Shown here: positions 1-39,112 of the stretch, in pieces
Layout of the letters: every line of letters begins with the position of its first letter
Numbering within the stretch: the first letter of the stretch is position 1
IMG/VR virus record: IMGVR_UViG_3300023212_000488
Coordinates: 1-39,112 of that record
DNA: 39,112 nt
From: a virus
Reading direction: 5' to 3' (one strand)
Program-made: the position numbers and the translations under genes
The notes under the pieces: generated by a model
What the model saw: the letters and a program-made list of their open reading frames with translations, nothing else
Database searches by the model: none
What the model was told of the DNA's origin: nothing

Positions 1-62
1 ATAAGACTTATGTACGGGTTGTGTAATGATTGTATAAGAGTTATATAACTGTTATATAATTT
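1..62. repeat. 62-bp sequence identical to the window end (circular-closure overlap or terminal redundancy)
   Basis: Bases 1-62 read identically to 39051-39112, so the unit genome is about 39050 bp. Confidence 0.95.
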
Positions 63-186
63 GTATGTCTTTTTTGTATAAGGCCTGTTTAGGGCCTACG
101 TTCCCGGGTACAGGACGAACCCAGACCTTCTCCTTATCGCTGTGATAGTCCAACCCAGACGCCCTGGCGCTTAAAGTCCAGAGAAG

Positions 187-261
187 TTATTTAGCTTTAT
201 TCACTAAGAAAGCCCATCCAAATAAACCTGCAGCGAATAAGATGAATTTTATCCAATCCAT
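187..261 (-). CDS. 24-aa hydrophobic peptide MDWIKFILFAAGLFGWAFLVNKAK (type I toxin-like or small membrane protein candidate)
   Basis: Hand translation gives ATG at 259-261 and TAA at 187-189. SD GAGAGG lies 7 nt upstream. The peptide has a single TM-like core and a basic C-terminus. It is below the 60-aa track cutoff. Confidence 0.35.
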   Translation of the reverse strand: MDWIKFILFAAGLFGWAFLVNKAK

Positions 262-291
262 AGAATTACCTCTCTTACCTAAATCTCATCT

Positions 292-320
292 ATTATATTC
301 TAGTTATGCTATCTAAGCAA
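292..320 (-). promoter_or_regulatory. sigma70-like promoter TTGCTT-17 nt-TATAAT facing the 24-aa ORF
   Basis: On the minus strand the -35 TTGCTT is at 315-320 and the -10 TATAAT at 292-297, with an exact 17-nt spacer. Confidence 0.4.
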
Positions 321-369
321 TGAAATTGTCAAAGTAAGAAGTTATTTTAACAACGTCTGATTATCTTCA

Positions 370-582
370 TTATGTTACAAAACGAGCCTCTTCACAATAG
401 TGTGTGAATGGCATGAATGACTTACAAGTATCTGTGGATGATAAATGACTCGTAGCTATAATGTGAGCGCCCATGCGTGTTTTGACCATAGTGTGGAGGT
501 AGTAGATATTGTCAGAATTGCGCTCTTTTTCATAAATAAAGAAACATCTTTTTTGATAAAAATTTATACGATGTTTATCCAT
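370..582 (-). CDS. hypothetical protein (Cys/His-containing, 70 aa)
   Basis: ORF from the track. Its ATG overlaps the stop of the upstream small ORF (ATGGATAA), suggesting translational coupling. No SD seen. Confidence 0.4.
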   Translation of the reverse strand: MDKHRINFYQKRCFFIYEKERNSDNIYYLHTMVKTRMGAHIIATSHLSSTDTCKSFMPFTHYCEEARFVT

Positions 583-739
583 GGTTCTGAATTTTGTACT
601 TCTGTCTAGCTTTTTTGGAGAGATATCCTAAGGTGGGAAAGTTTTTTGAATTTCCTATTTGAGGCTTATAGGGGGTTGAGAGCCATTTATCGTTGGCTTT
701 TTTGATATAACTTAGTTTTGCACTGCCTCTTAAAGCCAT
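575..739 (-). CDS. 54-aa basic protein, paralogous segment to the 730..921 product
   Basis: Hand translation gives MALRGSAKLSYIKKANDKWLSTPYKPQIGNSKNFPTLGYLSKKARQKYKIQNHG. It shares IKKANDKWL with the neighbouring ORF, and its ATG overlaps the neighbour's stop region. Confidence 0.4.
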   Translation of the reverse strand: MALRGSAKLSYIKKANDKWLSTPYKPQIGNSKNFPTLGYLSKKARQKYKIQNHG

Positions 740-921
740 TCATCATATCCTTGTTGTTGCATTTTTTTTCGTTGTAAATGCATAGCAACTTGTCTTTGCA
801 TAAGTCTTCGAAGGGCATCGCTACTTTTTTTCCTTTTGTTTGGATTTTTAGCAAGCCATTTATCATTGGCCTTTTTGATATCGTTCATTTCTTCATGTAA
901 TGGCTTTAGTGCTTTTCTCAT
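730..921 (-). CDS. 63-aa basic protein (MRKALKPLHEEMNDIKKANDKWLAKNPNKRKK...)
   Basis: The ATG at 919-921 lies 1 nt after the ParB-like stop (TGATATG). The longer track ORF 730..1080 overlaps the ParB-like gene in another frame. Confidence 0.5.
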   Translation of the reverse strand: MRKALKPLHEEMNDIKKANDKWLAKNPNKRKKSSDALRRLMQRQVAMHLQRKKMQQQGYDEWL

Positions 922-922
922 A

Positions 923-1396
923 TCAGAACTCAAAGCCACATGAAGGGCATTCGGTTTTCTTTCCTGCTTTTTTTTTCGTTTGCTTTTCTTCGCTATCCTC
1001 TTCCACAACTTCTGAAAAAGCACCAATAAGCTCCTCTTCATGAAATCCCCATGAAAGCAAGTCATCAGCTTCCCATTCATTGGCTAGGATGTCATAATCA
1101 AATGAGCCGGCATTCTTATTCATGCGAATACAAAGCTCTTCGCAATCTTTTTCATTGAGCTGTCTTTCAGGTATCCAACATTCTGTCGATGTATAGCCGA
1201 GCTCTTTAAGAATCTTTATGCGTTGATGACCGCTGATGATTGTATTGTCAGCATTAATGATGGGCTTTTCGGTAAGACCGAATTTTTCGATAGATTTTCT
1301 TAAGTGAAAGTATTGATCTTTGGAAAGTTGTCTTGGGTTCTTTGAGTGCTTTTTTAATGATTTTAAAGGCCGCTCTTGTAATGTCCATTTAATCAT
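923..1396 (-). CDS. ParB N-terminal domain (ParB/sulfiredoxin-like nuclease) protein
   Basis: LKKHSKNPRQLSKDQYFHLRKSIEKFGLTEKPIINADNTIISGHQRIKILKELG matches the ParB-N fold signature (NPR..., GHQR). The acidic C-terminus ends in a single CxxC. Confidence 0.75.
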   Translation of the reverse strand: MIKWTLQERPLKSLKKHSKNPRQLSKDQYFHLRKSIEKFGLTEKPIINADNTIISGHQRIKILKELGYTSTECWIPERQLNEKDCEELCIRMNKNAGSFDYDILANEWEADDLLSWGFHEEELIGAFSEVVEEDSEEKQTKKKAGKKTECPSCGFEF

Positions 1397-1578
1397 ATGC
1401 TCCCTAGCTTAGAAAATAGTATATCTATGAGTTGTTCTCTTTCTGTGAGAGTGAGATATCCATCTTCCACTTGTTGCATGTTCGGTCTCACAGATCTTCG
1501 ACTTTTGAATTTAAGCCATAAGAGATGCAACTGTCGGATATTCTTTTTATAAAAAATAGGGGCGCGTCGTTTCTTCAT
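1393..1578 (-). CDS. hypothetical basic protein, first gene of the minus-strand operon 1578->370
   Basis: ORF from the track, with an ATGA overlap onto the ParB-like gene. Confidence 0.5.
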   Translation of the reverse strand: MKKRRAPIFYKKNIRQLHLLWLKFKSRRSVRPNMQQVEDGYLTLTEREQLIDILFSKLGSI

Positions 1579-2839: not shown

Positions 2840-3082
2840 ATGGAAAAACCAGGAAATTATATATTCAAAAACTTCTCTCGTAAACTAGTTGCAAAACGTT
2901 ATGAAAGGAACCTAACTCAGGAAAAGTTATCTGAATTAGTCGACATTCATGTTGTGACAATTCAAGCTTTGGAAAGAGGTGTAAGAAACCCGTCATTTGC
3001 TACTGCTATTAAATTATCAAAAGTTTTAGACATCCCTATCGCTGAGCTTGCTGAAGCATGCTTAGAAGAGCTAGAGATCTAA
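2840..3082 (+). CDS. XRE-family helix-turn-helix transcriptional regulator
   Basis: LTQEKLSELVDIHVVTIQALERGVRNPSFATAIKLSKVLDIPIAEL is a canonical HTH_3 pattern. Confidence 0.8.
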   Translation: MEKPGNYIFKNFSRKLVAKRYERNLTQEKLSELVDIHVVTIQALERGVRNPSFATAIKLSKVLDIPIAELAEACLEELEI

Positions 3083-3117: not shown

Positions 3118-4056
3118 TCAAGCAATTTGGCATTGATACATTTTCATCTTGTCTTTCAACCTCTCTGTAAATCCTTTTTCTGTGTATTTTAAGAAATCTG
3201 GAGCCTTTTGAGAGGTGTAAAAGATAAACTCAACACCTTTAGCTAAGATATCTATCCCTAAAAAGGATGGTTTTTTAGCTTTCTGGATGATTTCTGCTGC
3301 TGCCTTCTTGTTGATGCTTTCTTCATCATCTTTGCTCAATGGAGGCACAAGCTTTTGCTTACATGCCCATTTTAGCGCTTGGATCAATCCCTTGGTATGC
3401 TTTGTTTCCGGATGTAGAGCCCAAGCTACGGCGTTTTTAACGTCATCTTCGCTATAATGGGTTGTTATCCATTGCTTTTCATAAGGGTCTATCTGCAAAG
3501 ATTCAAGGCATCCATAGACTGCCTTTTGCTGTTGTTTTTTTTCAGAAGAAACAGCAGCAATCGGCGAAGCCGCCTTTTCTTTTGTTGTTGTTTCTTTTGT
3601 ATATATATTTTCTTTTGTGGGTGTCCCATGGGACACTGGGGGGGGTGTTCGGTGGGACACTGGGGGGGTGTCCGACGGGACACTGGTATAAGAATTTTTA
3701 AAACAAGCCATTTCTTCTTCTGTCTCAATACCATCCGATGGATCATGAATTTCTCGTTCATCGGTTTCAGTCACCAGTCCATAGTAACATTTTTGATTGC
3801 CATTGGAACCCACAATTCGTTTGAAAATAAGGTTCTTTTGGATCAACCTAATTAAAATTTTACATACCGATCTTCGTTCATAACCGGTCTTTTGGGCAAG
3901 CATGCTTAAAGTGATCCAATCTTCACATTTATGCCATCCGAAAGTTTGGCGAATAATTATAAGCAAGACACGCATTTCTCCTTCATTAAGAGTTTTCATG
4001 ATCTCATCAAAGAAAATATTTGGAGTGTTGGTATAATTAGGAGCAGGAATTTTCAT
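3118..4056 (-). CDS. replication initiator, lambda O-like (N-terminal winged-helix Rep_O domain)
   Basis: NIFFDEIMKTLNEGEMRVLLIIIRQTFGWHKCEDWITLSMLAQKTGYERRSVCKILIRLIQKNLI resembles the phage replication protein O N-terminus. The ATG at 4056 has GGAGG plus 6 nt upstream. A Pro/Thr linker is encoded by the iterons. Confidence 0.7.
   Translation of the reverse strand: MKIPAPNYTNTPNIFFDEIMKTLNEGEMRVLLIIIRQTFGWHKCEDWITLSMLAQKTGYERRSVCKILIRLIQKNLIFKRIVGSNGNQKCYYGLVTETDEREIHDPSDGIETEEEMACFKNSYTSVPSDTPPVSHRTPPPVSHGTPTKENIYTKETTTKEKAASPIAAVSSEKKQQQKAVYGCLESLQIDPYEKQWITTHYSEDDVKNAVAWALHPETKHTKGLIQALKWACKQKLVPPLSKDDEESINKKAAAEIIQKAKKPSFLGIDILAKGVEFIFYTSQKAPDFLKYTEKGFTERLKDKMKMYQCQIA
3575..3687. other. 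putative origin of replication: three 23-24-bp iterons plus adjoining AT-rich tract, inside the rep gene
   Basis: The units start at 3621, 3645 and 3668, and each carries GTGT(C/T)C-N4-GGACAC followed by TGG and a G-run. The first is the perfect palindrome GTGTCCCATGGGACAC. An AT-rich stretch lies at 3575-3618. Confidence 0.55.
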
Positions 4057-4276
4057 AAAAAACCTCCAAAATCCCAATATTGATGAGTTCTTTTCTGAAT
4101 ATTTCAGGCATGTCTTTCCAATGAATAAGATTGGATTCAAGAAGAGTGTAATATCCTTTAGCAGTTACAGAAAGAATTGGATTTGACAAAATTCTTTTAT
4201 CAATCTGCACATAAGGATTTTCTCTATCATGAGGACATCGTTGAAAAGTAGGTTCATTAGGAATATGATTTTTCAT
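4037..4276 (-). CDS. hypothetical protein upstream of rep (79 aa)
   Basis: The ATG at 4276 has AAGGAG plus 5 nt upstream. The gene overlaps the rep start by 20 nt. Confidence 0.55.
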   Translation of the reverse strand: MKNHIPNEPTFQRCPHDRENPYVQIDKRILSNPILSVTAKGYYTLLESNLIHWKDMPEIFRKELINIGILEVFYENSCS

Positions 4277-5212: not shown

Positions 5213-5485
5213 TTATTCCTGAGAATCCTTCTCCTTTTTCGCAGAATCTTTTGCTTTTGATTTTAGTCGTATACTGTGCATTATTTCTCTACATGTGACC
5301 TTTCCAAAGGTAGCATCTTCGATACGTATGGCGGTAGAAAGCATAGGTTCGCGTCCATTGATCACACTTTTCAAAGTAACATATGAAATACCAGTGCTTT
5401 GAGAGAATTCCCAAAGAGATAAGTTGTTTATTTTCAAAAACTCAGATAGATCCATGCGTAAATTTTCACTTTCTTGTGTTGACAA
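5213..5485 (-). CDS. Cro/CI-type HTH regulator
   Basis: LSLWEFSQSTGISYVTLKSVINGREPMLSTAIRIEDATFGKV is an HTH pattern. The track start is a TTG, and the ATG at 5455 (MDLSEF...) is an alternative. The gene is divergent from the early plus-strand operon. Confidence 0.7.
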   Translation of the reverse strand: MSTQESENLRMDLSEFLKINNLSLWEFSQSTGISYVTLKSVINGREPMLSTAIRIEDATFGKVTCREIMHSIRLKSKAKDSAKKEKDSQE

Positions 5486-5739: not shown

Positions 5740-6032
5740 ATGTTGATTGCGCAAAGGATTATTTCAAGGAGCGCATGGTAGAAAAAATGGAAGAGCGCAA
5801 AGAAGAAGCTGTAGAAGCCGTCGCAAATATCGTAGGAAAAGAGTTAGCTGAAGCTTTTACTAAAGTTCTTTCATCTGCTTATGAGTATGGTTGCCCTGAA
5901 GCAATTAGATTAGCTAGCTGTTTAGGACTGGATGACGACGACTTTTTATGTATCGAAGAAAAATACGATGAATTTGTAGATAGAATGAATCAAATATACG
6001 AAGCAAGATATGTTTCCGCAATGGAGGATTAA
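5730..6032 (+). CDS. hypothetical acidic protein
   Basis: The ATG at 5730 is preceded by GGAGGA plus 4 nt. Confidence 0.55.
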   Translation: MYLDVDCAKDYFKERMVEKMEERKEEAVEAVANIVGKELAEAFTKVLSSAYEYGCPEAIRLASCLGLDDDDFLCIEEKYDEFVDRMNQIYEARYVSAMED

Positions 6033-6033
6033 T

Positions 6034-6744
6034 ATGAACATGATGAGTGAAAATATAAATGAATTAATAAGCGCTTTGGCACTAGCTCAAGGGCAAATCA
6101 GAGGTGCTGTAAAAGATAGCGATAATCCCTTTTTCAAAAGTAAATATGCAGACCTAAATAGCATTTGGAATGCGTGTAGAGAGGCTTTGAGCATGCATGG
6201 ATTGGCTGTTGCACAAACAATGTTTGAAAATGAAAAAGGAGATCTTTTTCTACAAACCACTTTAGGACATTCCTCAGGGCAATGGATAAAGTCAAATCTT
6301 CCAATTAATATCCAATCATCTAAAGAGGGGAGTAGAGTAAATGAATTGCAATTGTTAGGATCAGCAATAACTTATCTTCGAAGATATGCCCTTGCAGCTA
6401 TTGTAGGGGTAGCTCCTGATGAAGATGATGATGGCAATGCTGCTGGAGGATATAAAGCAAAACAAGCAAAATCATATGAAAAAACTTCTTCATCTGTTCC
6501 AAAAAAAATAACTGATAAGCAAGCTTATGATCTTGAGACTATATTAGATGAGTGTGATCCAAGCTATAAGAAATGGTTTTTAGATGTTGCTAAAAAACAC
6601 TATGGAATAGAAAATATTTCCGAAATTCCTCAAGAAAGATTCGAAAAGATGAGACTCGATGCGAATAAAAATCGTGAAGATTACATCAAAAAGCAATCTG
6701 AGCAATATGCCGATCAAGAAATGGCTGCATCGGAGATCCAATGA
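6034..6744 (+). CDS. erf: ERF-family single-strand annealing recombinase
   Basis: NPFFKSKYADLNSIWNACREAL...LGSAITYLRRYALAAIVGVAPDEDDDG is the ERF signature. The ATG at 6034 is preceded by GGAGGA plus 5 nt. Confidence 0.8.
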   Translation: MNMMSENINELISALALAQGQIRGAVKDSDNPFFKSKYADLNSIWNACREALSMHGLAVAQTMFENEKGDLFLQTTLGHSSGQWIKSNLPINIQSSKEGSRVNELQLLGSAITYLRRYALAAIVGVAPDEDDDGNAAGGYKAKQAKSYEKTSSSVPKKITDKQAYDLETILDECDPSYKKWFLDVAKKHYGIENISEIPQERFEKMRLDANKNREDYIKKQSEQYADQEMAASEIQ

Positions 6745-6920
6745 ATGCTAAAAATGTTATCGAACAAATTCAAGAAACCTATGCGGAATGGATAGAACAT
6801 GCTGAAAACCCTTTACAGTTTATTGCAGGGGTTTTAGCAAATAAAATTGTGATGCAGCAGCATCATATAGACTATCTTGAAAGAAGGATTGCGAATGAAG
6901 ACTCTTTCGCAAATAGATGA
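6741..6920 (+). CDS. 59-aa hypothetical protein between erf and the exonuclease gene
   Basis: Hand translation gives MNAKNVIEQIQETYAEWIEHAENPLQF.... There is an ATGA overlap with the erf stop. It is below the track cutoff. Confidence 0.45.
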   Translation: MNAKNVIEQIQETYAEWIEHAENPLQFIAGVLANKIVMQQHHIDYLERRIANEDSFANR

Positions 6921-7488
6921 GAAAGCTTTTATTCAAGGTACTGATGAATGGCTTGCACTTAGGCGCTGGAAGATAACTGCAACAGATGCTGCTGTTATTT
7001 TGGGAGAAAATAGATTCAAAACAGCAAGTGAGCTTTTTGATGAAAAGCTTTTTGGAAAAAGATCAAAAGTGACCGCTGCAATGCAGCGAGGAAGCGATTT
7101 TGAAGAAGACGCTAGAAAACTTTTCATTATCAAAACAGGAATATTTGTAGAGCCTTGTGTTAGAATTTCTAACAAAAATCCTTGGATGATGGCTTCTTTA
7201 GATGGTATTGATGTTACAAATTCACACATTGTAGAAATCAAATGTCCTGGAGAAAAGACACACAATACGGCTAAAAATGGAAAAGTGCCTGAGTACTACT
7301 ATGGTCAATTACAGCATCAAATGGCTGTTTGCAGCGCGAACGCTGTTTACTATTTCAGTTTTGATGGCTTTGATGGAGTTGTGATCAAAGTAGAAAGGAA
7401 TGACCAATATATCGATAAGATGATCGAAGAAGAGAAGAAATTTTATGACAGGTTAATGGAAGAAAAAGAAGCTTTAGGAATAGCCTAA
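6895..7488 (+). CDS. YqaJ-like (lambda Exo-type, PD-(D/E)xK) recombination exonuclease
   Basis: GTDEWLALRRWKITATDAAVILG ... ASLDG ... VEIKCP matches the YqaJ pattern. The ATG at 6895 is preferred over the track start at 6877. Confidence 0.8.
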   Translation: MKTLSQIDEKAFIQGTDEWLALRRWKITATDAAVILGENRFKTASELFDEKLFGKRSKVTAAMQRGSDFEEDARKLFIIKTGIFVEPCVRISNKNPWMMASLDGIDVTNSHIVEIKCPGEKTHNTAKNGKVPEYYYGQLQHQMAVCSANAVYYFSFDGFDGVVIKVERNDQYIDKMIEEEKKFYDRLMEEKEALGIA

Positions 7489-10835: not shown

Positions 10836-10837
10836 AA

Positions 10838-11395: not shown

Positions 11396-11404
11396 AAATT
11401 ATCC

Positions 11405-11731
11405 TTAATTTAGGACGATGAATTGAGAAACTAAAAAAATCAGACCAACGCCAGCTGCACCTTTAACAAAAATCTGTGTACCGGCTGGTATTGCTTCGTG
11501 AGCAGGATTTCCTTCATCTACATCATAAAGCCAAAATGAATTAGCTGGAGCTACATCAATATCTGTAGCACCATCTATGGAGACGGTCACAAGCGTGTTA
11601 GAATTGTTAACAAGTTTAAGAATATATGATGGATGTACAAGAGGACTTCCTACTGCTTGATATAACCCCGTTAAAGTTGCAGAATCAATGCTCCTAAGAG
11701 TCTCCCAAGCAATTTTTGTGGTATAAGCCAT
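11405..11731 (-). CDS. hypothetical virion/fibre-module protein
   Basis: ORF from the track, located in the fibre operon. Confidence 0.45.
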   Translation of the reverse strand: MAYTTKIAWETLRSIDSATLTGLYQAVGSPLVHPSYILKLVNNSNTLVTVSIDGATDIDVAPANSFWLYDVDEGNPAHEAIPAGTQIFVKGAAGVGLIFLVSQFIVLN

Positions 11732-11733
11732 CT

Positions 11734-11940: not shown

Positions 11941-11950
11941 TTTCCTTATT

Positions 11951-14715: not shown

Positions 14716-14716
14716 T

Positions 14717-24906: not shown

Positions 24907-24923
24907 AATTTATCCTTATAGAA

Positions 24924-24948: not shown

Positions 24949-24956
24949 CCATATGA

Positions 24957-29257: not shown

Positions 29258-29282
29258 AAAAGGAAAATTTATTCCGAGCTAG

Positions 29283-29354
29283 CTCAGCGGCAGAGCAGTG
29301 GACTGTTAATCCATTGGTCGTAGGTTCGAATCCTACACTCGGAGAAAAAAAAGA
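29283..29354 (+). tRNA. tRNA-Asn (anticodon GTT)
   Basis: Manual cloverleaf: acceptor TCCGAGC/ACTCGGA (one mismatch), D arm GCTC-AGCGGCA-GAGC, anticodon arm GTGGA-CTGTTAA-TCCAT, T arm GTAGG-TTCGAAT-CCTAC. No CCA is encoded. Confidence 0.85.
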
Positions 29355-30010: not shown

Positions 30011-30673
30011 TTATATTCTCATGTTTTTTTGAAGCTCTTTCATCTTTGCGTAGGCTTGTTTTTGGCCAGCATCACTAAAGTCTCCAGCTGCTGCATAAGG
30101 CGCTGTGCCTACTCCGGACGGCTGATAATAAGGACTCTTACGATTTGCATCGATCTTTTCTTGAATAGATGGTGCTTTTGCTGCTGGTTTATCTAATCCT
30201 AGTGCCTTGATATTCTTGTAGACCAGTTTTTGTCTTTCAAATGTATCAGGCATCTCTAATATGGCTTCAGCTAGCTCAGGATCTTTTTGAGCGAACTTTT
30301 CAGCATGTTGCATCACATCAAAAAAATCTGGATTTGATTTCATCCAACTATCTCTTTTCTGTTGGTCAAGTAGATGACGAGCCTTTTCTTCTGCTTTTTT
30401 CTCGATTTTTTCTTCTAATTTTTTCTCAAATGAAGAAAGCTTACGATCAAGGCGTTTGTGATCTACATAAGGATCATCGTATTCATCTTCTTCAACTTGG
30501 ACTTGCTTTTTCATTTGATATTCGCGAGCTAAACGTTCTGCTTCTTCACGCTTTGTGCGCTCCTCAGATACCTGTCGCTGGTATTTTGCCTCAAGGGCAC
30601 GGAAATTCAGTTCTTTGTCTGATGGTTTTTGTTCTTGATTTTGTGGTTGACTCTCTTGCGTCTGAGCTGTCAT
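30011..30673 (-). CDS. scaffolding protein (inferred)
   Basis: The 220-aa product is highly charged and helical (E/K/Q-rich). The gene lies between the portal and capsid genes. SD AAAGGAA lies upstream. Confidence 0.55.
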   Translation of the reverse strand: MTAQTQESQPQNQEQKPSDKELNFRALEAKYQRQVSEERTKREEAERLAREYQMKKQVQVEEDEYDDPYVDHKRLDRKLSSFEKKLEEKIEKKAEEKARHLLDQQKRDSWMKSNPDFFDVMQHAEKFAQKDPELAEAILEMPDTFERQKLVYKNIKALGLDKPAAKAPSIQEKIDANRKSPYYQPSGVGTAPYAAAGDFSDAGQKQAYAKMKELQKNMRI

Positions 30674-32651: not shown

Positions 32652-34772
32652 TTATGCTGCACCGACAACATTTTGCGAAGGCTGTGTTGCCATCAGTTGT
32701 GCCATAAAACGTTTAGAAAATTCATTCTTTTCAGTGTCAGTTCTAGCCTCTTTTTCCATTTCTTCTTCATCATATTTAATGGATTCAAGTTGATTTGCTC
32801 TTAAGAATGTTTCTACTTCACCAAATTTCTGAATAGCTTCTAACATCTTTGAAAGGGCATCCATTTTTTCGCGTGTAGATATCGCATGGTTCTTAGATAT
32901 CTCAGAAATCCTTTCTTCAAATAGTCCAACATTAGATGCTGATCTAGAATCACGCTCACGAGCTTGTGAAAGCAGGTTATGGATTTTAGCCATGAGTTCT
33001 TTTAGCTTCATCTCTTCAACAGTATGCTGTAAGTTTTGCATTTCAGCTTGAGATGCTTGCATTTGCTGCTCTTGCTGCTGTAAGAATTGGATAACTTCAG
33101 CTTTGCCAGTGATATTAAGCTTTGGAATGATCATTGAAGCAGGAAAGACTTCTCGTCCAAAACGTTCATTCATCTCAAACATCTGTTGAGCTTGTAAATT
33201 TTGTTGGGTTGGCGTTAAGTCGCTCTCTTCAACGATCACTTGGTATTTGGAATATATCTTACTGTAGAAATATGGTGATGGCTCTTCACCTATATATAAA
33301 GCCACTTTTTCTGCATTCCAATTATTCTGTATAATCTTCATCATGCGATCACCAAGGAGCTTATCTGAAAAATCCCATTGATCGAAGTATTTCTGGAATA
33401 CCATTAAGTTTGCAGCTTGTTTGATCATAGCAGTAAGTGCAGAAATCTGCTTGTCCTGCTGTCCAGACCAGTTTTCTAGATTAATTCCAGATGTACTATA
33501 GATAAGATCAGCCATTTGATTGGCTAGCTCAAGATCTGATTGTGGAACAGCTGAAGGGATGATTTTTTCAACATCACCCATCTCATAACCTTCGTTAATG
33601 ATGACATCCCAACCCTGACCTGATTTCTTTAAGTTGTCTTCATTAGCAACAGCACCAACTTTACGCTTCCAGCCAGCATTAATAGTGGCGGCGGCAATAT
33701 CATTATTAGTGATGATCTTGTAATTGTAGAGGAACTGTGGATCACGCATAGTGCGTACAAGGCTGCGTACACGTAGATCGAAATAGTTGATATGAGGCTC
33801 ATAATTCCAAAAATATGGGATAAAAGGACAGTCGTCGAAACCAAGTGGATTGTCTCCTTGAAACATGAGTTGATCATTCAAAATGGTAGCAAGCTTCCAG
33901 GTTGGAACTTCTACTGTTACTGCTTCCAAATCTGGAATGTTGTAAAGAATAGCTTCTAGGTTTTCATCTCCACCTGAAAAGTCAAAGAACTGGTTTCTTG
34001 ACCGGCTATAAAGTCTCTTTTTCTTCCTTTTCCATTTATACCAAACATAACTAAGAACCATAAGATCATTGCGAGCCATGTTATAATTTTCAGGTAAGAA
34101 ATAGAATGAGCCATAACGTTGTGGGGTTCCTGCCATTGGGCGAATTTGTTCTAGTTTATCAGGAAAGCGAGATTCTGCCTCTTTTTTACTGATGTATTCT
34201 TGGCACCAGATGAATTGAGCGTCACTCATATCAGGTGATCTAAAATAAGGGTCGACTAAGAAGCTATTATATTCCCAAATTTTCAGCTTTAATTCGCCTT
34301 GGGCTGCATCATCGCTGCTATAGTCAAGATAAGGCTGCGCCAAACACATTCCTGCGACTGCTGCCAATTCTTTTGCTTTGGATTTCTGTTCATGGATACA
34401 TCCACCATTAGCGACATGTGTTATTAACTTAGTGAATTGATCTGCGGTTTGAGGATCGGCTCCTTCAGTCGGAACATAAGAGAAGTTCTTTCTATGTTGA
34501 CGCTCATAACCTGTGATCATATTCACAGGTTGCTGAATCAAATTGAAATAATATTGCTGATAACTTGTTGTGGGAGAGAAGTTAAAATATCTGTTAACGA
34601 ACGTTTGAGAGCCAGCATAAAATAAAGTGTCAATATTCGATTGATTCCAGCGGCTTTGTTCGATGGGCTGAAATTTCGAGTAAAGATTATCTAGCCATTG
34701 TCTAACGTTACCTTGATTTGGTTCTAATGCGTTATTCCAAGGGGGATAGTAGAAAGAAATATATGCCTCCAA
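32652..34772 (-). CDS. portal protein (inferred) with C-terminal coiled-coil extension
   Basis: The 706-aa gene is the first large gene after terL. It has a long helical Gln/Glu-rich C-terminus. The start is unusual: either a TTG without SD or an ATT 5 nt after GGAGG. Confidence 0.65.
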   Translation of the reverse strand: MEAYISFYYPPWNNALEPNQGNVRQWLDNLYSKFQPIEQSRWNQSNIDTLFYAGSQTFVNRYFNFSPTTSYQQYYFNLIQQPVNMITGYERQHRKNFSYVPTEGADPQTADQFTKLITHVANGGCIHEQKSKAKELAAVAGMCLAQPYLDYSSDDAAQGELKLKIWEYNSFLVDPYFRSPDMSDAQFIWCQEYISKKEAESRFPDKLEQIRPMAGTPQRYGSFYFLPENYNMARNDLMVLSYVWYKWKRKKKRLYSRSRNQFFDFSGGDENLEAILYNIPDLEAVTVEVPTWKLATILNDQLMFQGDNPLGFDDCPFIPYFWNYEPHINYFDLRVRSLVRTMRDPQFLYNYKIITNNDIAAATINAGWKRKVGAVANEDNLKKSGQGWDVIINEGYEMGDVEKIIPSAVPQSDLELANQMADLIYSTSGINLENWSGQQDKQISALTAMIKQAANLMVFQKYFDQWDFSDKLLGDRMMKIIQNNWNAEKVALYIGEEPSPYFYSKIYSKYQVIVEESDLTPTQQNLQAQQMFEMNERFGREVFPASMIIPKLNITGKAEVIQFLQQQEQQMQASQAEMQNLQHTVEEMKLKELMAKIHNLLSQARERDSRSASNVGLFEERISEISKNHAISTREKMDALSKMLEAIQKFGEVETFLRANQLESIKYDEEEMEKEARTDTEKNEFSKRFMAQLMATQPSQNVVGAA

Positions 34773-35037: not shown

Positions 35038-35247
35038 TTACCCCACTGGCCATTGTTCTTTGTAATTTTCAATACTCATCATGAGATCTTTTTCTAAATC
35101 CTCATAAATCTTCCCTGAAGCGGCATATGCATTTGCAATAACATATATCATTGCGTTAATTGCATCTGGAGGATCTATATTATTTTCACTTAACATGGAA
35201 TAGATTATATCAACAACTATTTGAATTTTCTCTTCACCCATGACCAA
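35038..35247 (-). CDS. hypothetical protein between terL and portal
   Basis: ORF from the track, overlapping the terL stop. Confidence 0.45.
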   Translation of the reverse strand: MVMGEEKIQIVVDIIYSMLSENNIDPPDAINAMIYVIANAYAASGKIYEDLEKDLMMSIENYKEQWPVG

Positions 35248-36505
35248 ACCTATTTCTCATATAATTTCCTGCATTATGCTTATACGGTTGATATGTAGCA
35301 ACTTTATGTGATGCTAACGCATATCTTAAAGCGTCAATGCAATGATCATTAGTTTTAATAGGTCTGTCTTCACCACGTTCTGCAGATTTTGGATCCCAAC
35401 TATATCCTTCAATTTCACGAATAAGATTTTTGCAACGATCTAAAATGATACATTTGCCATCACGGACTGCTGATGTCATCATCTGAATGCCATTTTCAAC
35501 ATCATTATTAGCATCGGATGTATGCATGCCGCGTCTATTTAATTCAGCTTTCATTGCAGCAGCGCTTGGATCAATATATATGCTTTTGACAGAATAAGGC
35601 TCTAAGAATTTTTCAATATCTTCAGCAAGCTCGCCTACAAGCTTCTGACGACCCTTTTGCTTGATATCCCAAAAATATTCATCTTCCACCCACATTTGTT
35701 TCCCAAGTTGGTTCTCAACACCCGTTGATACACCTATGAGAAGACATGCTGTTGGGTTAGACATACCAAAATCAATAGCAGCAATCCAATAATTTGCAGC
35801 TCGAGGAGGTTCTTTCTCAACATAAATAGTTTTATCCCAAAAATCAAAGATTGCGCCTTCAGCAAGACACCAAAGGCCAAGATAGTTTCGTTTATAAAAA
35901 AGCCCTGACAAGCTATTTGCAAGGGTTTGTTTGTAGTCAGATGGTAAATATGGATTATCATCGATCATGAACTGAAGAGAATAATAAGTCTTATCGCCAG
36001 CTTCCCCAAGATCGATAAGCTTTTTGATCTTATGTGTCGGCTGTTTTGGGTTCATGCTAGCAAAACCAATGCTGTAAGGGAGTCTAAGCCTTGTGAGTAT
36101 CATGTCGATAACATTATCAGGATATAAAGTCATTTCGTCGCAATAGGCAATAGATATAGTTTTCCCTTGTATACGACCAATGCTACCTTCATCTTTTGCT
36201 CCGATGATTGTGATGTTTTTGTCGTGATATTTAAGCTCATTTTTTCCAGGAAACCATGTGCAATAGGGCTTATAGATCTCAAATTGCGGTGTCTCGAAAA
36301 TAAGCCTGATACAGTTCTCATAGATAGTTGACGAACTATATCCAAACATGTAAATTTGGCTATCAGGGCACTCATAAGCGGCTTGAAGGAATCTAAAAAG
36401 TGTTGCCACAGTCTTGCCAGAGCTGACAGGACCGTGAGCAAAGTTCCAGCGAGCAGTGCTTCTGATGACAAATTCTAATTGTTTAGTAGAAAGTGGTGGA
36501 AGCAT
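35234..36505 (-). CDS. terL: terminase large subunit
   Basis: Walker A HGPVSSGKT sits near the N-terminus, with CDE (Walker B-like) further on. The C-terminal nuclease region contains IDPSAAA and NDHCIDALRYA. The product is 423 aa. Confidence 0.85.
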   Translation of the reverse strand: MLPPLSTKQLEFVIRSTARWNFAHGPVSSGKTVATLFRFLQAAYECPDSQIYMFGYSSSTIYENCIRLIFETPQFEIYKPYCTWFPGKNELKYHDKNITIIGAKDEGSIGRIQGKTISIAYCDEMTLYPDNVIDMILTRLRLPYSIGFASMNPKQPTHKIKKLIDLGEAGDKTYYSLQFMIDDNPYLPSDYKQTLANSLSGLFYKRNYLGLWCLAEGAIFDFWDKTIYVEKEPPRAANYWIAAIDFGMSNPTACLLIGVSTGVENQLGKQMWVEDEYFWDIKQKGRQKLVGELAEDIEKFLEPYSVKSIYIDPSAAAMKAELNRRGMHTSDANNDVENGIQMMTSAVRDGKCIILDRCKNLIREIEGYSWDPKSAERGEDRPIKTNDHCIDALRYALASHKVATYQPYKHNAGNYMRNRFGHG

Positions 36506-36612
36506 ATGCGTGGAAGCTTAAATAGGTCAAAAGAAGAGTTAGTTGAAGATCTAAAGTCATTAATCGATATTCTTGATGATTTGCCTCCACAAGCACTTAG
36601 AGAACCTGTTTC

Positions 36613-37044
36613 TCATATGGATTTATTGTCATCTTTAAGGCTTGTCTCAGCAATCTTTTGTGCAGATTGTAAAGAAAGTATTTGATTCATTAAAGCATTA
36701 AATTGCAGTAATGTGTTTTCTGTTGCTGCTTCTTGTGGAAGATCTTTTTGGCCTAAGTACTGTTTTCCAAGCCAAATAGCCATTGTAGCGTTTTTTTTTG
36801 CAATGACGCGTTGATCTCTCCTTAAAGAGCATTTTCCATTTTCAAGGAACTTTTTATAGACTACGGAAAAATCTTCTCCATAATATTCTACAGCTCTATC
36901 TCGAAGAGTATCGGCATTTATTTTAAGGAAACTTGCTATTTCAGATTGTGTACAATGAAGACCACAGAGACTTTCGAATTGATCCCAGTTAATGACTACT
37001 TTGGGACGGCCAGACTTTTTCTTTTCTGTTTCGACTATAGACAT
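36613..37044 (-). CDS. terS: terminase small subunit (HTH type)
   Basis: KKSGRPKVVINWDQFESLCGLHCTQSEIASFLKINADTLRD is a typical small-terminase N-terminal HTH. The gene lies immediately upstream of terL. Confidence 0.7.
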   Translation of the reverse strand: MSIVETEKKKSGRPKVVINWDQFESLCGLHCTQSEIASFLKINADTLRDRAVEYYGEDFSVVYKKFLENGKCSLRRDQRVIAKKNATMAIWLGKQYLGQKDLPQEAATENTLLQFNALMNQILSLQSAQKIAETSLKDDNKSI

Positions 37045-37465: not shown

Positions 37466-37468
37466 AAA

Positions 37469-37678
37469 TCAATTGTGATTATCAGTTTTTTTTATCACTT
37501 TGAAACCAATATGATCCGTTGATATTATGATGTCATCGCAGTATTTTATAGGCACTTTTTTAGAAAGCATATTCACCCTTTTTTTATTTAAAATAGGGGC
37601 TTTATAACCATCTTTTCTTGTTATAGAATCAGAAAAAGTCCTAACAGGAGCTTGACCATTGGAAATAATCGTTGTCAT
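37469..37678 (-). CDS. hypothetical protein
   Basis: ORF from the track. Confidence 0.45.
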   Translation of the reverse strand: MTTIISNGQAPVRTFSDSITRKDGYKAPILNKKRVNMLSKKVPIKYCDDIIISTDHIGFKVIKKTDNHN

Positions 37679-37692
37679 ATCACATTTCTTTT

Positions 37693-38112
37693 TTATATTG
37701 GTCCTTCTCTCAATATATGTTTCATAGGAACAATATCAGTAGATGCTTGTTGTCTATGCGTTGGAGATACAGGAGCAAATTGTGATGATGCCATTTTCAT
37801 GTGTATGGGAGCTCGTGAGCTATGACGTGCTTTTGGTGTCGGTAAATGACGTTTCTTATTGATATCATCACCCATATTAGCTGTATCTCTTCCTTCAAAT
37901 ACCACTTTGGCAACATTCATCGTTTCTACTGTTGTGTCAGGATCATCTAAAGTTAGAGTTAAATGCCCTTGGGGTTTTGGAGATGGTCCTGGAGATGTTC
38001 GTTTGGTTTGGGAATATTCTACAACCTTAGAAACAGATTGTCGTTTTGTAGCACTTGGGGGAAATTGTGTTATGGGTTCAACCTGAGTTGAATTACAACA
38101 AAAAAAAGGCAT
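37693..38112 (-). CDS. Pro/Ser/Thr-rich, probably disordered protein downstream of parG-like gene
   Basis: ORF from the track, starting MPFFCCNS. It has low complexity. Confidence 0.45.
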   Translation of the reverse strand: MPFFCCNSTQVEPITQFPPSATKRQSVSKVVEYSQTKRTSPGPSPKPQGHLTLTLDDPDTTVETMNVAKVVFEGRDTANMGDDINKKRHLPTPKARHSSRAPIHMKMASSQFAPVSPTHRQQASTDIVPMKHILREGPI

Positions 38113-38114
38113 AT

Positions 38115-38363
38115 TTACTCCTTATTATTTAATCTATTTTGTATGGCTTGCAAAATCCATAATGTGCGAGAACCCAATGTTACTCGTTCATCTATAGATT
38201 TTAGCATATTTATGGGAATTCTTAAGCGAATAAAAGTATGAGTATTTTCAGAAGAGGGAAGTGTGATGTCTTTATCTTCGATACAAAAAGCTCCCTTAGA
38301 GATCATCTTTTCAATTTCTTCTTCTGTGATAGTGCTTTCTTTGAGAGGTTTCCTAATGGACAT
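38115..38363 (-). CDS. ParG-like ribbon-helix-helix partition/centromere-binding protein
   Basis: The C-terminal FIRLRIPINMLKSIDERVTLGSRTLWILQAIQNRL fits an RHH fold. The gene lies directly downstream of parA. Confidence 0.55.
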   Translation of the reverse strand: MSIRKPLKESTITEEEIEKMISKGAFCIEDKDITLPSSENTHTFIRLRIPINMLKSIDERVTLGSRTLWILQAIQNRLNNKE

Positions 38364-38391
38364 ATATAAAATTTATATAAAGGTTATATAA
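38362..38391. promoter_or_regulatory. three (A/T)TATATAA palindromes at 11-bp phasing between parA and parG-like gene
   Basis: ATATATAA at 38362, TTATATAA at 38373 and TTATATAA at 38384. Confidence 0.4.
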
Positions 38392-38394
38392 CGA

Positions 38395-39048
38395 TTAGAT
38401 AAGAGTTGTACATTCATGATATATGAATTGGTACAAGCTCATCAATTCTTGGAGTGCTTTCTTGTCTGGATGTTTCACCTCAACAATTCCTAAACCATCG
38501 CTTGATGAGTTGCCAAAAGTCTTGCGATTGCCTATTGTAAATTTTAGACATTTGAACTCTTCGCATTCTTCCAAAATGCTAATAGCATCATCATTATCTG
38601 TTCCTTTCGGATCGGCTTGATTAATGAATGCAAAAGCTTTTAGCTTGGGATTGACTGTGCGCATTTCGTTGATGATTGTTTTTACATCACCAATAGTCCA
38701 CACATCATATGATCGTGGTTTGAATGGTATTAAATAGACATCAGCCACAGATAAAGCCGAACGCTGTGATGTTGTGTCTCTTCCTCCAGCATCAATGATG
38801 ATATCATCATAATCTCCTTTCATTCTTTCAATTTGGAATCTTATTGTTTTGCCAGCGAGTTGAATTGTTGACCATTTGGTAGCAATTCCTAAAACATCTC
38901 TTTGATTAGAGAAGACTGATGTTGATTTTTGTTCATCAGCGTCGATAAGCAAAACTTTTTTGTTTGCTCCTGATCTTAATACAGCGAGATTGGTAGCAAT
39001 CGTTGTTTTACCGCTGCCACCTTTAACGCCTCCGACAAGAAGGATCAT
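38395..39048 (-). CDS. parA: ParA/Soj-family partition ATPase (small, type Ib-like)
   Basis: MILLVGGVKGGSGKTTIATNLA is a deviant Walker A, followed by LLIDADEQ. The product is 217 aa and lacks an N-terminal HTH. Confidence 0.85.
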   Translation of the reverse strand: MILLVGGVKGGSGKTTIATNLAVLRSGANKKVLLIDADEQKSTSVFSNQRDVLGIATKWSTIQLAGKTIRFQIERMKGDYDDIIIDAGGRDTTSQRSALSVADVYLIPFKPRSYDVWTIGDVKTIINEMRTVNPKLKAFAFINQADPKGTDNDDAISILEECEEFKCLKFTIGNRKTFGNSSSDGLGIVEVKHPDKKALQELMSLYQFIYHECTTLI

Positions 39049-39050
39049 AT

Positions 39051-39112
39051 ATAAGACTTATGTACGGGTTGTGTAATGATTGTATAAGAGTTATATAACT
39101 GTTATATAATTT
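39051..39112. repeat. copy of bases 1-62 (circular-closure overlap)
   Basis: Identical to 1-62. Confidence 0.95.

What the first reader, a model, noticed from the sequence alone, without database searches (positions are those of the whole stretch)
1..39112. Complete circular tailed-phage genome equipped for plasmid-style maintenance (phage-plasmid)
The two window ends are identical over 62 bp, so the sequence closes into a unit of about 39.05 kb. One molecule combines a full virion and packaging module with a small ParA plus an RHH ParG-like partner. It also carries a ParB-N-domain protein and an iteron-containing lambda-O-type initiator. The only integrase-like gene lacks a catalytic domain. 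That combination is the hallmark of P1/N15/SSU5-style phage-plasmids. Here, however, it sits on what looks like a podovirus-like chassis: I recognised no tube, sheath or long tape measure, and the order is portal, scaffold, capsid, large nozzle-like protein, internal proteins, fibres. I did not recognise the structural proteins as any well-known phage group.
Basis: partly seen in the sequence, partly recalled or inferred. Interest (0 to 1): 0.7.

Follow-up and report, generated by a model that had tools for sequence, protein, structure and literature searches.

The report
Uncultured podovirus-like phage carrying a plasmid-partition cassette
This is the complete 39-kb genome of an uncultured short-tailed-type soil phage that has no integrase but carries a full plasmid-style partition cassette and a lambda-like replication origin, so it is a credible but unproven phage-plasmid candidate of a kind already known.

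Summary
The first and last 62 bp are identical, giving a 39,050-bp unit. A second metagenome contig with a different break point reads straight through the junction.

Confirmed genes: P22-type portal, TerL, TerS, N4-gp56-type capsid, a ParF-like ParA, a lambda-O-type initiator with three iterons inside its own gene, and an integrase homologue without a catalytic domain.

New here:
- About seven 11-bp direct repeats lie directly upstream of parA.
- The 82-aa partner belongs to a small family, some members of which score as ribbon-helix-helix (RHH) proteins. In all four contexts examined it lies directly downstream of a ParA.
- The genome belongs to a very large uncultured phage family (over 1000 capsid clusters). 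Its contigs never exceed about 43 kb, and phage-type integrases are absent.

The phage-plasmid reading is only partly supported:
- Circular closure is also expected from permuted virion DNA or replicating concatemers.
- The ParB-N gene is linked to terS in relatives, not to parA.
- The truncated "integrase" is a conserved stand-alone helicase partner, not a decayed integrase.
- The par cassette is a rare, mobile accessory in a family that otherwise looks as much virulent as temperate.

No plasmid state was shown. Verdict: new member of a known kind, moderate interest.

The parts
1..62 (.). Terminal duplication: identical to 39051-39112. This is an assembly overlap of a circular or circularly permuted unit of 39,050 bp.
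   Evidence: an independent contig crosses the junction.
1..68 (-). About seven 11-bp direct repeats (ACATACAAATT / ATATAACAGTT / ATATAACTCTT / ATACAATCATT / ACACAACCCGT / ACATAAGTCTT / ATATATGATCC). They run into the parA start codon. Candidate centromere/operator.
   Evidence: Lag-11 autocorrelation is 0.66, reached by 0 of 1000 shuffles. The same 11-bp periodicity lies upstream of the parA of relative L047.
38395..39048 (-). ParA: 217-aa deviant Walker-A ATPase (KGGSGKT) with no N-terminal HTH. ParF/type Ib-like.
38115..38363 (-). 82-aa ParA partner: basic N-terminal tail, ISKGA motif and an RHH-like C-terminus (FIRLRIP...GSRTLWILQAIQNRL).
   Evidence: The single-sequence AF2 model was unusable.
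3118..4140 (-). Lambda-O-type replication initiator. JGI calls the start at 4056 (312 aa).
3560..3689 (-). Origin inside the initiator gene: three 23-24-nt iterons (3619-3689), each with a GTGTCCC..GGGACAC dyad, followed by an AT-rich tract (3560-3618).
2840..3082 (+). 80-aa XRE/HTH_3 regulator, alone on the opposite strand within the leftward early operon. Candidate maintenance repressor.
   Evidence: No homologue in relatives.
5213..5485 (-). 90-aa HTH regulator, first gene of the leftward early operon. It diverges from a consensus sigma-70 promoter (about 5476-5504, +).
6010..7488 (+). Recombination module: ERF annealase (6010-6744) and YqaJ exonuclease (6877-7488).
923..1396 (-). ParB/Srx-like N-domain protein (157 aa). 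Lies next to terS in relatives, so it is probably not the ParA partner.
35234..37044 (-). Terminase: small subunit (36613-37044) and large subunit (35234-36505).
32652..34772 (-). P22-type portal protein.
30011..30673 (-). Candidate scaffolding protein (charged, Glu/Lys/Arg-rich N-terminal region). Conserved in 64 relatives' loci. No family hit.
   Evidence: composition read from the translation.
26109..27080 (-). Major capsid protein, N4-gp56 type. 87-95% identical across the 120 best homologue clusters.
9336..26093 (-). Tail and ejection module, interrupted at 14497-15369 by a small + strand island that includes the DUF29 gene (14941-15369). Genes: 378-aa E1_FCCH-domain protein, 140 aa, 194 aa, 410-aa SU10-adaptor-like protein, 209-aa Gp53-like fibre, 999-aa nozzle-like protein, four unmatched proteins (156/198/384/440 aa, candidate internal proteins), an 818-aa repeat-rich fibre, and 68/108/185/499-aa fibre proteins.
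27370..29257 (+). Conserved two-gene cassette: SF2 helicase (27370-28713) and an integrase homologue lacking the catalytic domain (28700-29257, overlapping starts). Here it is inserted between the scaffold and capsid genes.
29272..29345 (+). tRNA-Asn (GTT) followed by a hairpin. Relatives also carry tRNA genes downstream of the portal (gene-level position not mapped), so it is not an attP relic.

Best explanation
The window is the complete genome, about 39.05 kb, of an uncultured, probably short-tailed phage with a P22-type portal and an N4-gp56-type capsid. It belongs to a very large metagenomic phage family that lacks phage-type integrases and is never found attached to chromosomal DNA.

Relative to its closest relatives, this lineage has about 2.9 kb inserted between its ParB-nuclease-like gene and terS. 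The insert holds a self-contained type-Ib-like partition cassette with three parts:
- an array of about seven 11-bp direct repeats;
- a 217-aa ParF-like deviant-Walker ATPase;
- an 82-aa centromere-binding partner with a basic N-terminal tail and an RHH-type C-terminus.

The genome also has a lambda-O-type initiator whose gene contains three iterons plus an AT-rich tract, and two XRE-type regulators that relatives lack.

Most likely mechanism (inferred): after infection the genome can persist without integrating, as a low-copy plasmid-like prophage or carrier state. RepO binds its iterons and starts theta replication. Dimers of the 82-aa protein coat the 11-bp repeats, which also autoregulates the operon. 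Their N-terminal tails stimulate nucleoid-bound ParA-ATP, and this spaces the copies so that both daughter cells inherit one. On induction, the long leftward operon drives packaging.

Shown by computation: genome closure, gene identities, repeat arrays, cassette conservation, and absence of integrases or chromosomal junctions. Inferred: DNA binding, partition activity, lysogeny and the plasmid state.
For: Closure and non-integration:
- Closure and an independent junction-crossing contig.
- No recombinase among the window's ORFs.
- The longest contigs in the family are 41.9 kb among the 80 listed of 296 portal loci, 42.9 kb among 64 loci found with the 999-aa protein, 39.1 kb among 7 contigs binned into metagenome-assembled genomes (MAGs), and 42.6 kb among the 120 best of 1022 capsid clusters.
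- Among 132 non-core protein clusters of at least 170 aa from relatives, there is one Xer-like tyrosine recombinase and two small resolvases, and no large integrase. One further resolvase homologue appeared in the second locus set.

Partition cassette:
- ParA matches ParA families, its best solved relatives are TP228 ParA/ParF (5u1g, 4dzz), and it is about 47% identical to plasmid ParAs.
- The partner family (15 homologues of 78-93 aa) conserves NLRxP..ML..IDE..G.SRT.WILEAIQEKL. The L047 partner hits RHH_1 at 3.3e-4, above the gathering score, and one family member hits at 1.4e-5.
- The partner sits directly after a ParA in four separate contexts: the window, L047-49, L011/12/66 and L089. L089 also carries PemK and HicAB addiction modules.
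- 11-bp periodic repeats lie upstream of parA in both the window and L047, and no shuffle out of 1000 reached the observed value. This layout resembles TP228 parH/OF (PMC3130281).
- The cassette sits at three different genomic positions in the family, which suggests repeated acquisition or retention under selection.

Replication and regulation:
- RepO with in-gene iterons and an AT-rich tract.
- XRE regulators specific to this lineage.
Against: - No direct evidence exists for lysogeny or a plasmid state.
- Circular assembly is equally expected from permuted, terminally redundant virion DNA or from concatemers.
- The par cassette is in only 6 of 87 portal-anchored loci (two lineages besides the window's) and in none of the 64 loci anchored on the 999-aa protein. 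The family otherwise lacks par, CI-type repressors and toxin-antitoxin modules. It carries homing endonucleases, an intein and tRNA arrays, which are common in virulent phages.
- No S24-type CI repressor, lysis genes, helicase loader or multimer-resolution function was recognised in the window.
- The window's own 82-aa protein has no direct RHH hit, and its single-sequence AF2 model failed (pLDDT 46).
- No relative is deposited as a plasmid among 72,556 plasmid records.
- ParA also occurs in integrating P22-like phages (PMC7969092).
Confidence: 0.5

Rival explanations
1. A virulent (or only pseudolysogenic) podovirus. The whole family lacks integration and stable lysogeny. On this view the parA-RHH cassette is a horizontally acquired accessory module. 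It might position or segregate replicating phage genomes during slow or chronic infection, or interfere with competing plasmids or phages, rather than maintain a true plasmid prophage.
For: - The par cassette is present in only 6 of 87 portal-anchored loci and in none of the 64 loci anchored on the 999-aa protein.
- Relatives are rich in HNH and LAGLIDADG endonucleases, an intein, RNA ligase, anti-restriction and anti-defence genes, and tRNA arrays.
- CI-type repressors and toxin-antitoxin modules are almost absent in the family.
- No relative is found among plasmids of cultured bacteria.
- No lysogeny gene is conserved family-wide.
Against: - A complete centromere-ParA-adaptor cassette with autoregulatory architecture has one well-established role, segregation of low-copy replicons.
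- It co-occurs here with lineage-specific XRE regulators and a plasmid-capable lambda-type ori.
- A homologous cassette sits beside PemK and HicAB addiction modules on another phage-like contig.
- Relatives carry lambdoid early-region genes typical of temperate phages: ERF/RecT, YqaJ, RusA, Rha, DUF551, DUF1064, Lar.
Confidence: 0.3
2. An integrating temperate phage whose recombination function was not recognised. Examples would be host XerCD-mediated integration or a novel recombinase among the unannotated proteins, with ParA as a bystander as in some P22-like phages.
For: - Several proteins of 140-440 aa have no family match.
- ParA occurs in integrating P22-like phages SE1 and ST160 (PMC7969092).
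- One relative carries a Xer-like recombinase.
Against: - In the 80 listed of 296 portal loci, the 64 nozzle-protein loci, the 7 MAG contigs and the 120 best capsid clusters, no contig exceeds 42.9 kb. No chromosomal flanks are ever seen.
- The unannotated large proteins lie inside the conserved tail module.
- The tRNA-Asn next to the integrase-like gene is an intact phage tRNA gene. Relatives that lack the integrase-like gene also carry tRNA genes downstream of the portal.
Confidence: 0.05
3. An assembly artefact: the 62-bp overlap or the gene combination comes from a chimeric join of a phage and a plasmid fragment.
For: The break point lies inside an AT-rich repeat array, a place where assemblers can misjoin.
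Against: - An independent 39,208-bp contig with 4 mismatches and a different break point has the same order across the junction.
- Homologous par cassettes are embedded in related phage genomes.
- GC content is even across the junction.
Confidence: 0.02

Closest known systems
TP228 ParF-ParG-parH (type Ib partition system)
   Same: - A small deviant-Walker ParA without an N-terminal HTH; ParF and TP228 ParA are its best solved relatives.
- A downstream partner of about 80 aa with a basic flexible N-terminus and an RHH-type C-terminus.
- An array of short repeats directly upstream of the operon (PMC3130281, PMC7308502).
   Different: - The repeats are 11-bp units rather than ACTC tetramers with 4-bp AT spacers, and only about 7 units were seen.
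- The partner has no detectable sequence similarity to ParG.
- The RHH fold is inferred from homologues only.
- The cassette sits in a phage genome and appears to move between positions.
Phage-plasmids P1, N15 and SSU5 (Pfeifer et al. 2021, PMC7969092)
   Same: One replicon combines virion and packaging genes with partition and autonomous-replication genes, and has no integrase.
   Different: - No shared structural genes: portal and capsid have no hit in 72,556 plasmid records, the capsid has no hit in 50,697 phage records, and the portal gives only weak partial matches there.
- Podovirus-like rather than myovirus or siphovirus.
- Type Ib rather than type Ia par.
- No addiction module, protelomerase or dimer-resolution gene recognised.
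- The plasmid state has not been demonstrated.
Podovirus-type phage-plasmid candidates: crAssphage (PMC10983915) and the F116 community with ParA-bearing P22-like phages (PMC7969092)
   Same: Short-tailed-type phages with plasmid-like genes. crAssphage likewise lacks an integrase and was proposed to have a phage-plasmid lifestyle.
   Different: No detectable relationship to either group. SE1 and ST160, as recalled P22-like phages, integrate, whereas this family has no integrase.
Bacteriophage lambda O/ori (and lambda-dv plasmids)
   Same: A Phage_rep_O N-terminal domain, with iterons carrying internal dyads inside the initiator gene, followed by an AT-rich tract. From established knowledge, lambda O/P plus ori can sustain a plasmid (lambda-dv).
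   Different: Three iterons rather than four. No P-like or DnaC-like loader gene was found next to it. The C-terminal half resembles a DnaD-like loader only weakly.
Metagenomic 'putative phage-plasmids' called from ParA/ParB genes (Bellas et al. 2015, PMC4490671)
   Same: Circular metagenomic phage scaffolds of about 37-38 kb with a terminase plus par genes, interpreted as plasmid-like lysogens.
   Different: Those groups usually also carried toxin-antitoxin modules and/or integrases. Here the inference rests on the par cassette, the ori and absence of an integrase.

Membership tests
Phage-plasmid (temperate phage maintained as a plasmid) | Complete virion, packaging and (ideally) lysis gene set on the replicon | tested here: met
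   Portal, TerL, TerS, capsid, adaptor-like and fibre genes were found. Lysis genes were not recognised.
Phage-plasmid (temperate phage maintained as a plasmid) | Plasmid-type partition and/or replication genes | tested here: met
   ParA with an RHH-like partner and upstream repeats. RepO with iterons.
Phage-plasmid (temperate phage maintained as a plasmid) | Extrachromosomal maintenance in lysogens | not testable with these tools
   Only indirect evidence: no integrase, and no contig in the family above 42.9 kb.
Phage-plasmid (temperate phage maintained as a plasmid) | Temperate lifestyle (repressor or lysogeny control) | tested here: inconclusive
   There are two small XRE/HTH proteins. No S24-type CI was found, no shared operators, and the family shows little sign of lysogeny.
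Phage-plasmid (temperate phage maintained as a plasmid) | Gene-content relatedness to a described phage-plasmid group (P1, N15, SSU5 and others) | tested here: not met
   No megablast hit in the phage collection. Portal and capsid have no tblastn hit in the plasmid collection. The capsid has no hit in the phage collection, and the portal has only weak partial matches there.
Type Ib ParA/RHH partition system (ParFG-like) | Small (about 200-220 aa) deviant Walker-A ATPase lacking an N-terminal DNA-binding domain | tested here: met
   217 aa with the motif GGVKGGSGKTT. CbiA/AAA_31 families; best solved relatives 5u1g and 4dzz.
Type Ib ParA/RHH partition system (ParFG-like) | Small RHH centromere-binding protein encoded directly downstream | tested here: inconclusive
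   An 82-aa gene lies 31 bp downstream. Homologues hit RHH_1 (3.3e-4 and 1.4e-5) and are ParA-linked in four contexts. The window protein itself has no hit, and its AF2 model had pLDDT 46.
Type Ib ParA/RHH partition system (ParFG-like) | Centromere/operator of short repeats upstream of parA | tested here: met
   About seven 11-bp repeats; lag-11 autocorrelation 0.66, reached by 0 of 1000 shuffles. The same periodicity occurs in L047. Binding was not tested.
Type Ib ParA/RHH partition system (ParFG-like) | Stabilisation of a low-copy replicon | not testable with these tools
   Needs a partition-probe assay.
Lambda O-type initiator with ori | Phage_rep_O N-terminal domain, with iterons inside the gene followed by an AT-rich region | tested here: met
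   PF04492 at 1.7e-12. Three iterons at 3619-3689 and an AT-rich tract at 3560-3618.
Lambda O-type initiator with ori | Adjacent P/DnaC-type helicase loader | tested here: not met
   No such gene was recognised downstream of repO.
Tyrosine integrase | Catalytic domain (PF00589, R-H-R-Y) | tested here: not met
   The protein has 185 aa, matches phrog_1 positions 114-264 of 611 only, and has no Pfam hit. Foldseek matches only the arm-binding and core-binding domains. All 13 homologues are 177-189 aa.
ParB (type Ia centromere-binding protein) | ParB N-domain plus HTH and a C-terminal dimerisation domain, encoded next to parA | tested here: not met
   Only the N-domain is present (157 aa, phrog_620). 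It lies about 0.9 kb upstream of parA across the junction, with other ORFs between, and sits directly upstream of terS in relatives.
Short-tailed (podovirus-type) phage | P22-type portal and adaptor/nozzle proteins, with no tape measure, tube or sheath | tested here: inconclusive
   P22_portal at 4.5e-58. The SU10_adaptor match (4.5e-4) is below the gathering score. No tail-tube, sheath or tape-measure hits were found, but many tail proteins have no match at all.

The most novel reading that the evidence does not exclude
A globally abundant, uncultured soil and wetland podovirus family lives by non-integrative lysogeny. The family has over 1000 capsid clusters, no phage-type integrase anywhere, and genomes of 37-43 kb. 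On this reading, type Ib parA-RHH cassettes move between genomic positions as self-contained 'maintenance morons'. That would add a large podovirus lineage to the phage-plasmids and give a natural system for watching par cassettes being gained.

A second, independent novelty is not excluded. The SF2 helicase paired with a catalytic-domain-less integrase homologue could be a new kind of origin-binding/helicase replication or mobility cassette derived from a tyrosine recombinase.
Probability: 0.2. Interest if true: 0.65.

Novelty: new member of a known kind. Interest (0 to 1): 0.42.

Why it matters
Phage-plasmids described so far are overwhelmingly siphoviruses and myoviruses of cultured Proteobacteria and Firmicutes (95.9% of those that could be typed; PMC7969092). 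A confirmed plasmid prophage on a podovirus-like chassis in an abundant uncultured soil phage family would widen their known range. It would also show that compact ParA-RHH cassettes can convert an integrase-less phage to stable carriage.

It also carries practical cautions for metagenomic lifestyle calls. Circular closure, a ParB-N domain and an integrase fragment are each weak evidence. Here two of the four cited 'plasmid' features turned out to be unrelated to maintenance.

Tried and rejected
- AF2 on the 82-aa partner alone gave pLDDT 46 and was unusable.
- Sequence and profile searches of the partner against the PDB gave nothing significant. The best match was the HicB RHH domain at E = 1.1.
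- PDB sequence searches for the 999-aa, 410-aa and capsid proteins were uninformative.
- tRNA-Asn as an attP relic was rejected. It is a full tRNA gene with its own hairpin, and relatives without the integrase-like gene also carry tRNA genes downstream of the portal.
- The ParB-N protein as the ParA partner was rejected on domain content and on its terS linkage in relatives.
- A structured RNA in the GC-rich stretch at 79-187 was rejected: z-scores were +0.23 and -0.23, there was no Rfam hit, and it is not conserved.
- No shared operators were found between the two divergent regulatory regions.
- GC skew was uninformative about the origin.
- An exact 30-mer search of metagenome contigs found nothing. 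A ParA pattern scan of IMG/VR found only distant ParAs.
- Host identification failed. MAG bin labels are inconsistent. ParA neighbours are taxonomically scattered. Strong Shine-Dalgarno sites and a consensus sigma-70 promoter argue only against a Bacteroidota-type host.

Full report
**1. Observation**

The window is 39,112 bp with 37.3% G+C. Its first 62 bp equal its last 62 bp exactly, so the unit is 39,050 bp.

The ParA protein is also encoded on JGI metagenome contig Ga0255987_10001351 (39,208 bp). That contig differs from the window by 4 mismatches in the compared part. Its break lies near window position 9080, and it reads through the 39112/1 junction with one copy of the 62-mer. A chimeric or artefactual join is therefore very unlikely.

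In 32 near-complete relatives the portal gene lies anywhere from 0 to 0.95 of contig length. These genomes assemble as circles with arbitrary break points. This shows a closed or circularly permuted unit. It does not separate a plasmid circle from headful-packaged permuted DNA or from concatemers.

**2. Gene content**

Nearly the whole genome is one leftward transcription unit with a few rightward islands.

Confirmed virion and packaging genes:
- P22-type portal: PF16510 at 4.5e-58, phrog_156.
- TerL: Terminase_6N/6C. The best solved relatives are the terminase large-subunit entries 5oe8 and 5oea, at 1.5e-51.
- TerS: a weak match.
- Major capsid protein (MCP): phrog_1357. JGI names close homologues 'N4-gp56 family major capsid protein'.
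- A 410-aa protein with a sub-threshold SU10-adaptor match.
- A Gp53-like fibre protein.
- A 999-aa protein and a 378-aa protein carrying E1_FCCH-like beta-barrel domains.
- A repeat-rich 818-aa fibre protein.

No tube, sheath or tape-measure family was detected. Many tail proteins match nothing, however, so 'podovirus-like' is supported but not shown.

Early genes:
- RepO (PF04492).
- ERF and YqaJ.
- A weak RusA-like protein.
- Two small HTH regulators.
- An FkbM methyltransferase and a DUF29 protein.

No ORF large enough encodes a recognisable integrase catalytic domain, serine recombinase, transposase or protelomerase.

**3. The partition cassette**

ParA has 217 aa and the motif GGVKGGSGKTT. 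It matches CbiA/AAA_31 and phrog_164. It is about 47% identical to many plasmid ParAs. Its best solved relatives are TP228 ParA and ParF, the type Ib prototypes.

The 82-aa gene lies 31 bp downstream and has no direct family or PDB hit. The single-sequence AF2 model failed. Other evidence points to an RHH partner:
- A full-library HMMER search found 15 homologues of 78-93 aa.
- They share a basic N-terminus (M-x-[IV]-[RK]-K-P), an IxKGA motif and a C-terminal pattern NLRxP..ML..IDE..G.SRT.WILEAIQEKL, which is typical of RHH proteins.
- One member hits RHH_1 at 1.4e-5.
- The 45%-identical partner in relative L047 hits RHH_1 at 3.3e-4, above the gathering score.
- The partner follows a ParA in the window, in L047-49, in L011/12/66 and on an unrelated 37.7-kb phage-like contig (L089). 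That contig also carries PemK and HicAB.

Directly upstream of parA, running into its ATG, lie about seven 11-bp direct repeats at window 1-68 on the minus strand. Lag-11 autocorrelation is 0.66, and none of 1000 shuffles reached it. L047 shows the same periodicity upstream of its parA.

This is the layout of type Ib systems such as TP228 parFGH. There, RHH dimers coat a repeat array upstream of the operon, and the flexible N-terminal tail stimulates the ATPase (PMC3130281, PMC7308502).

**4. Replication**

The RepO gene contains three 23-24-nt iterons (3619-3689). Each has an internal GTGTCCC..GGGACAC dyad. An AT-rich tract follows them. This is the lambda ori arrangement.

No P/DnaC-like loader was found.

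**5.

(a) The ParB-N protein (157 aa, phrog_620 at 8.6e-31, no Pfam hit) has only the ParB/Srx-like domain. In seven of the nine relative loci that carry it, it sits directly upstream of terS: L006, L019, L036, L063, L067, L071 and L074. One search lists no TerS match in the same position for the other two. In the window it is separated from terS by about 2.9 kb that includes the par cassette. It is therefore linked to the packaging genes by position, not to ParA. The par cassette looks like an insertion.

(b) The 185-aa integrase-like protein is not a decayed integrase:
- All 13 homologues are 177-189 aa.
- The AF2 model (pLDDT 89) matches lambda Int and isolated integrase N-terminal and core-binding domains only.
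- The gene start overlaps the end of an SF2 helicase gene here and in L090 and L091. It lies directly next to a helicase homologue in L079, L014, L051 and L007.
- The pair occupies different genomic positions in different genomes.

The tRNA-Asn next to it is an intact tRNA gene. Relatives also carry tRNA genes downstream of the portal, one in L004 and five in L016. It is not an attP relic.

**6. Family context**

The portal finds 296 IMG/VR loci, and the 80 listed are 71-85% identical. It also finds 7 MAG contigs with contradictory taxonomic labels. The 999-aa protein finds 64 further loci. The capsid finds 1022 protein clusters.

No contig exceeds 42.9 kb, and many are 37-42 kb. Chromosomal flanks are never seen.

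The capsid is 87-95% identical across the 120 best clusters. Yet it has no tblastn match in 50,697 phage records or 72,556 plasmid records. The portal has only matches of 28% identity or less, covering about a quarter of its length, to Ralstonia, Burkholderia and Pseudomonas phages. This is a large family without a sequenced isolate.

Conservation across the 87 portal-anchored loci, by tblastn:

| Gene | Loci with a match |
|---|---|
| Portal | 87 |
| TerL | 78 |
| Scaffold candidate | 64 |
| MCP | 49 |
| ParB-N | 9 |
| ParA | 6 (two lineages) |
| RepO | 5 |
| Helicase + IntN | 4 |
| 80-aa HTH | 0 |

Pfam scans covered 132 non-core clusters of at least 170 aa and 150 smaller ones from relatives:
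- Recombinases: one Xer-like recombinase and two small resolvases, but no phage-type integrase.
- Homing elements: HNH and LAGLIDADG endonucleases and an intein.
- RNA and anti-defence genes: RNA ligase, ArdA, Tad2-like and Lar.
- Lambdoid early-region genes: DUF551, DUF1064, RusA, RecT and Rha.
- Replication genes: DnaB- and DnaC-like.
- Toxin-antitoxin modules and CI-type repressors: almost none.

The family is therefore non-integrating. Whether it is temperate cannot be decided from its gene content.

**7. Interpretation**

The best-supported reading (about 0.5) is that this lineage can persist extrachromosomally, using a lambda-type ori and an acquired type Ib par cassette. That would make it a phage-plasmid or a stable carrier state.

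The main rival (about 0.3) is a virulent or pseudolysogenic phage in which the cassette is an accessory. An unrecognised integration mechanism (about 0.05) and an artefact (about 0.02) are unlikely.

The par cassette sits at three different positions in the family:
- between ParB-N and terS here;
- between TerL and the portal, on the opposite strand, in L011/12/66;
- in the early region in L047.

**8. Comparison and novelty**

Phage-plasmids are a known and widespread category. Metagenomic candidates called from par genes have been reported since 2015 (PMC4490671). Podovirus-type cases are rare but not unprecedented. They include crAssphage (PMC10983915) and the F116 community, which contains ParA-bearing P22-like phages (PMC7969092).

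This genome is unrelated in gene content to any described phage-plasmid group. It is best filed as a new, unproven member of a known kind, sitting in a notable uncultured phage family.

**Score**

Interest is moderate, 0.42.

Noticed in passing
window 27185-27249 (-): A match to Rfam DUF3800-VIII RNA (RF03075) scores 43 bits against a gathering score of 40.2. It lies in the leader upstream of the major capsid gene. It was not detected at the gathering score in six relatives.
   Followed up: partly
window 27370-29257 (+); also L079, L014, L051, L007, L090, L091: An SF2 helicase and a catalytic-domain-less integrase homologue of about 180 aa form a conserved two-gene cassette. The homologue keeps the arm-binding and core-binding domains. 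The gene ends overlap where read (window, L090, L091). The cassette occupies different positions in different phage genomes, and here it splits the scaffold and capsid genes. It may be an origin-binding/helicase or mobility module derived from a tyrosine recombinase.
   Followed up: partly
window 26109-27080 (-) and relatives: The capsid protein is 87-95% identical across the 120 best of 1022 homologue clusters. The portal is about 75% and TerL about 59% identical in the same family. No sequenced phage or plasmid record has a tblastn match to the capsid.
   Followed up: partly
window 188-263 (-) and 79-187: A 24-aa hydrophobic ORF (MDWIKFILFAAGLFGWAFLVNKAK) has a strong Shine-Dalgarno site. 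It is followed by a GC-rich stretch of about 110 nt, just upstream of the par repeats. The layout resembles a type I toxin. There is no significant RNA fold, no Rfam hit and no conservation in relatives.
   Followed up: partly
window 24957-26093 (-) and 18979-21978 (-): Domains similar to the ubiquitin-E1 FCCH beta-barrel (PF16190) occur in the 378-aa protein after the capsid gene (1.6e-7). They occur twice in the 999-aa nozzle-like protein (3.6e-14). The same domain is annotated in relatives (L156).
   Followed up: no
L011, L012, L066 (between TerL and portal); L047-L049 (early region): Homologous parA-RHH cassettes sit at different genomic positions in related phages. In L066 the cassette is on the opposite strand, inside the packaging module.
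   Followed up: yes
window 12262-13690 (-), inside the 818-aa gene: Tandem repeats of 180 nt, and of 147 and 240 nt spacing, encode a repetitive Gly/Thr-rich fibre-like protein. This stretch is also the most GC-rich part of the genome (0.44).
   Followed up: no
window about 5476-5504 (+); ribosome-binding sites genome-wide: A consensus sigma-70 promoter (TTGACA-N17-TATAAT) precedes the ERF/YqaJ operon, and the structural genes have strong GGAGG-type Shine-Dalgarno sites. This argues against a Bacteroidota-type host, although two MAG bins carry Bacteroidetes labels. The host remains unknown.
   Followed up: partly
L092, L094, L095, L124, L143, L152 and others: In several relatives the match to the 999-aa protein spans 4.1-4.4 kb instead of 3.0 kb. 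Relatives also encode an intein splicing domain and LAGLIDADG/HNH endonucleases, which suggests insertions of selfish elements in structural genes.
   Followed up: no
window 14497-15369 (+): A rightward island lies inside the tail module. It holds a 72-aa protein with an RHH-like N-terminus (MRFRIPVDIFKRY...), a 70-aa single-pass membrane protein and a DUF29 protein (1.2e-41). It may be a moron. It was not examined further.
   Followed up: no
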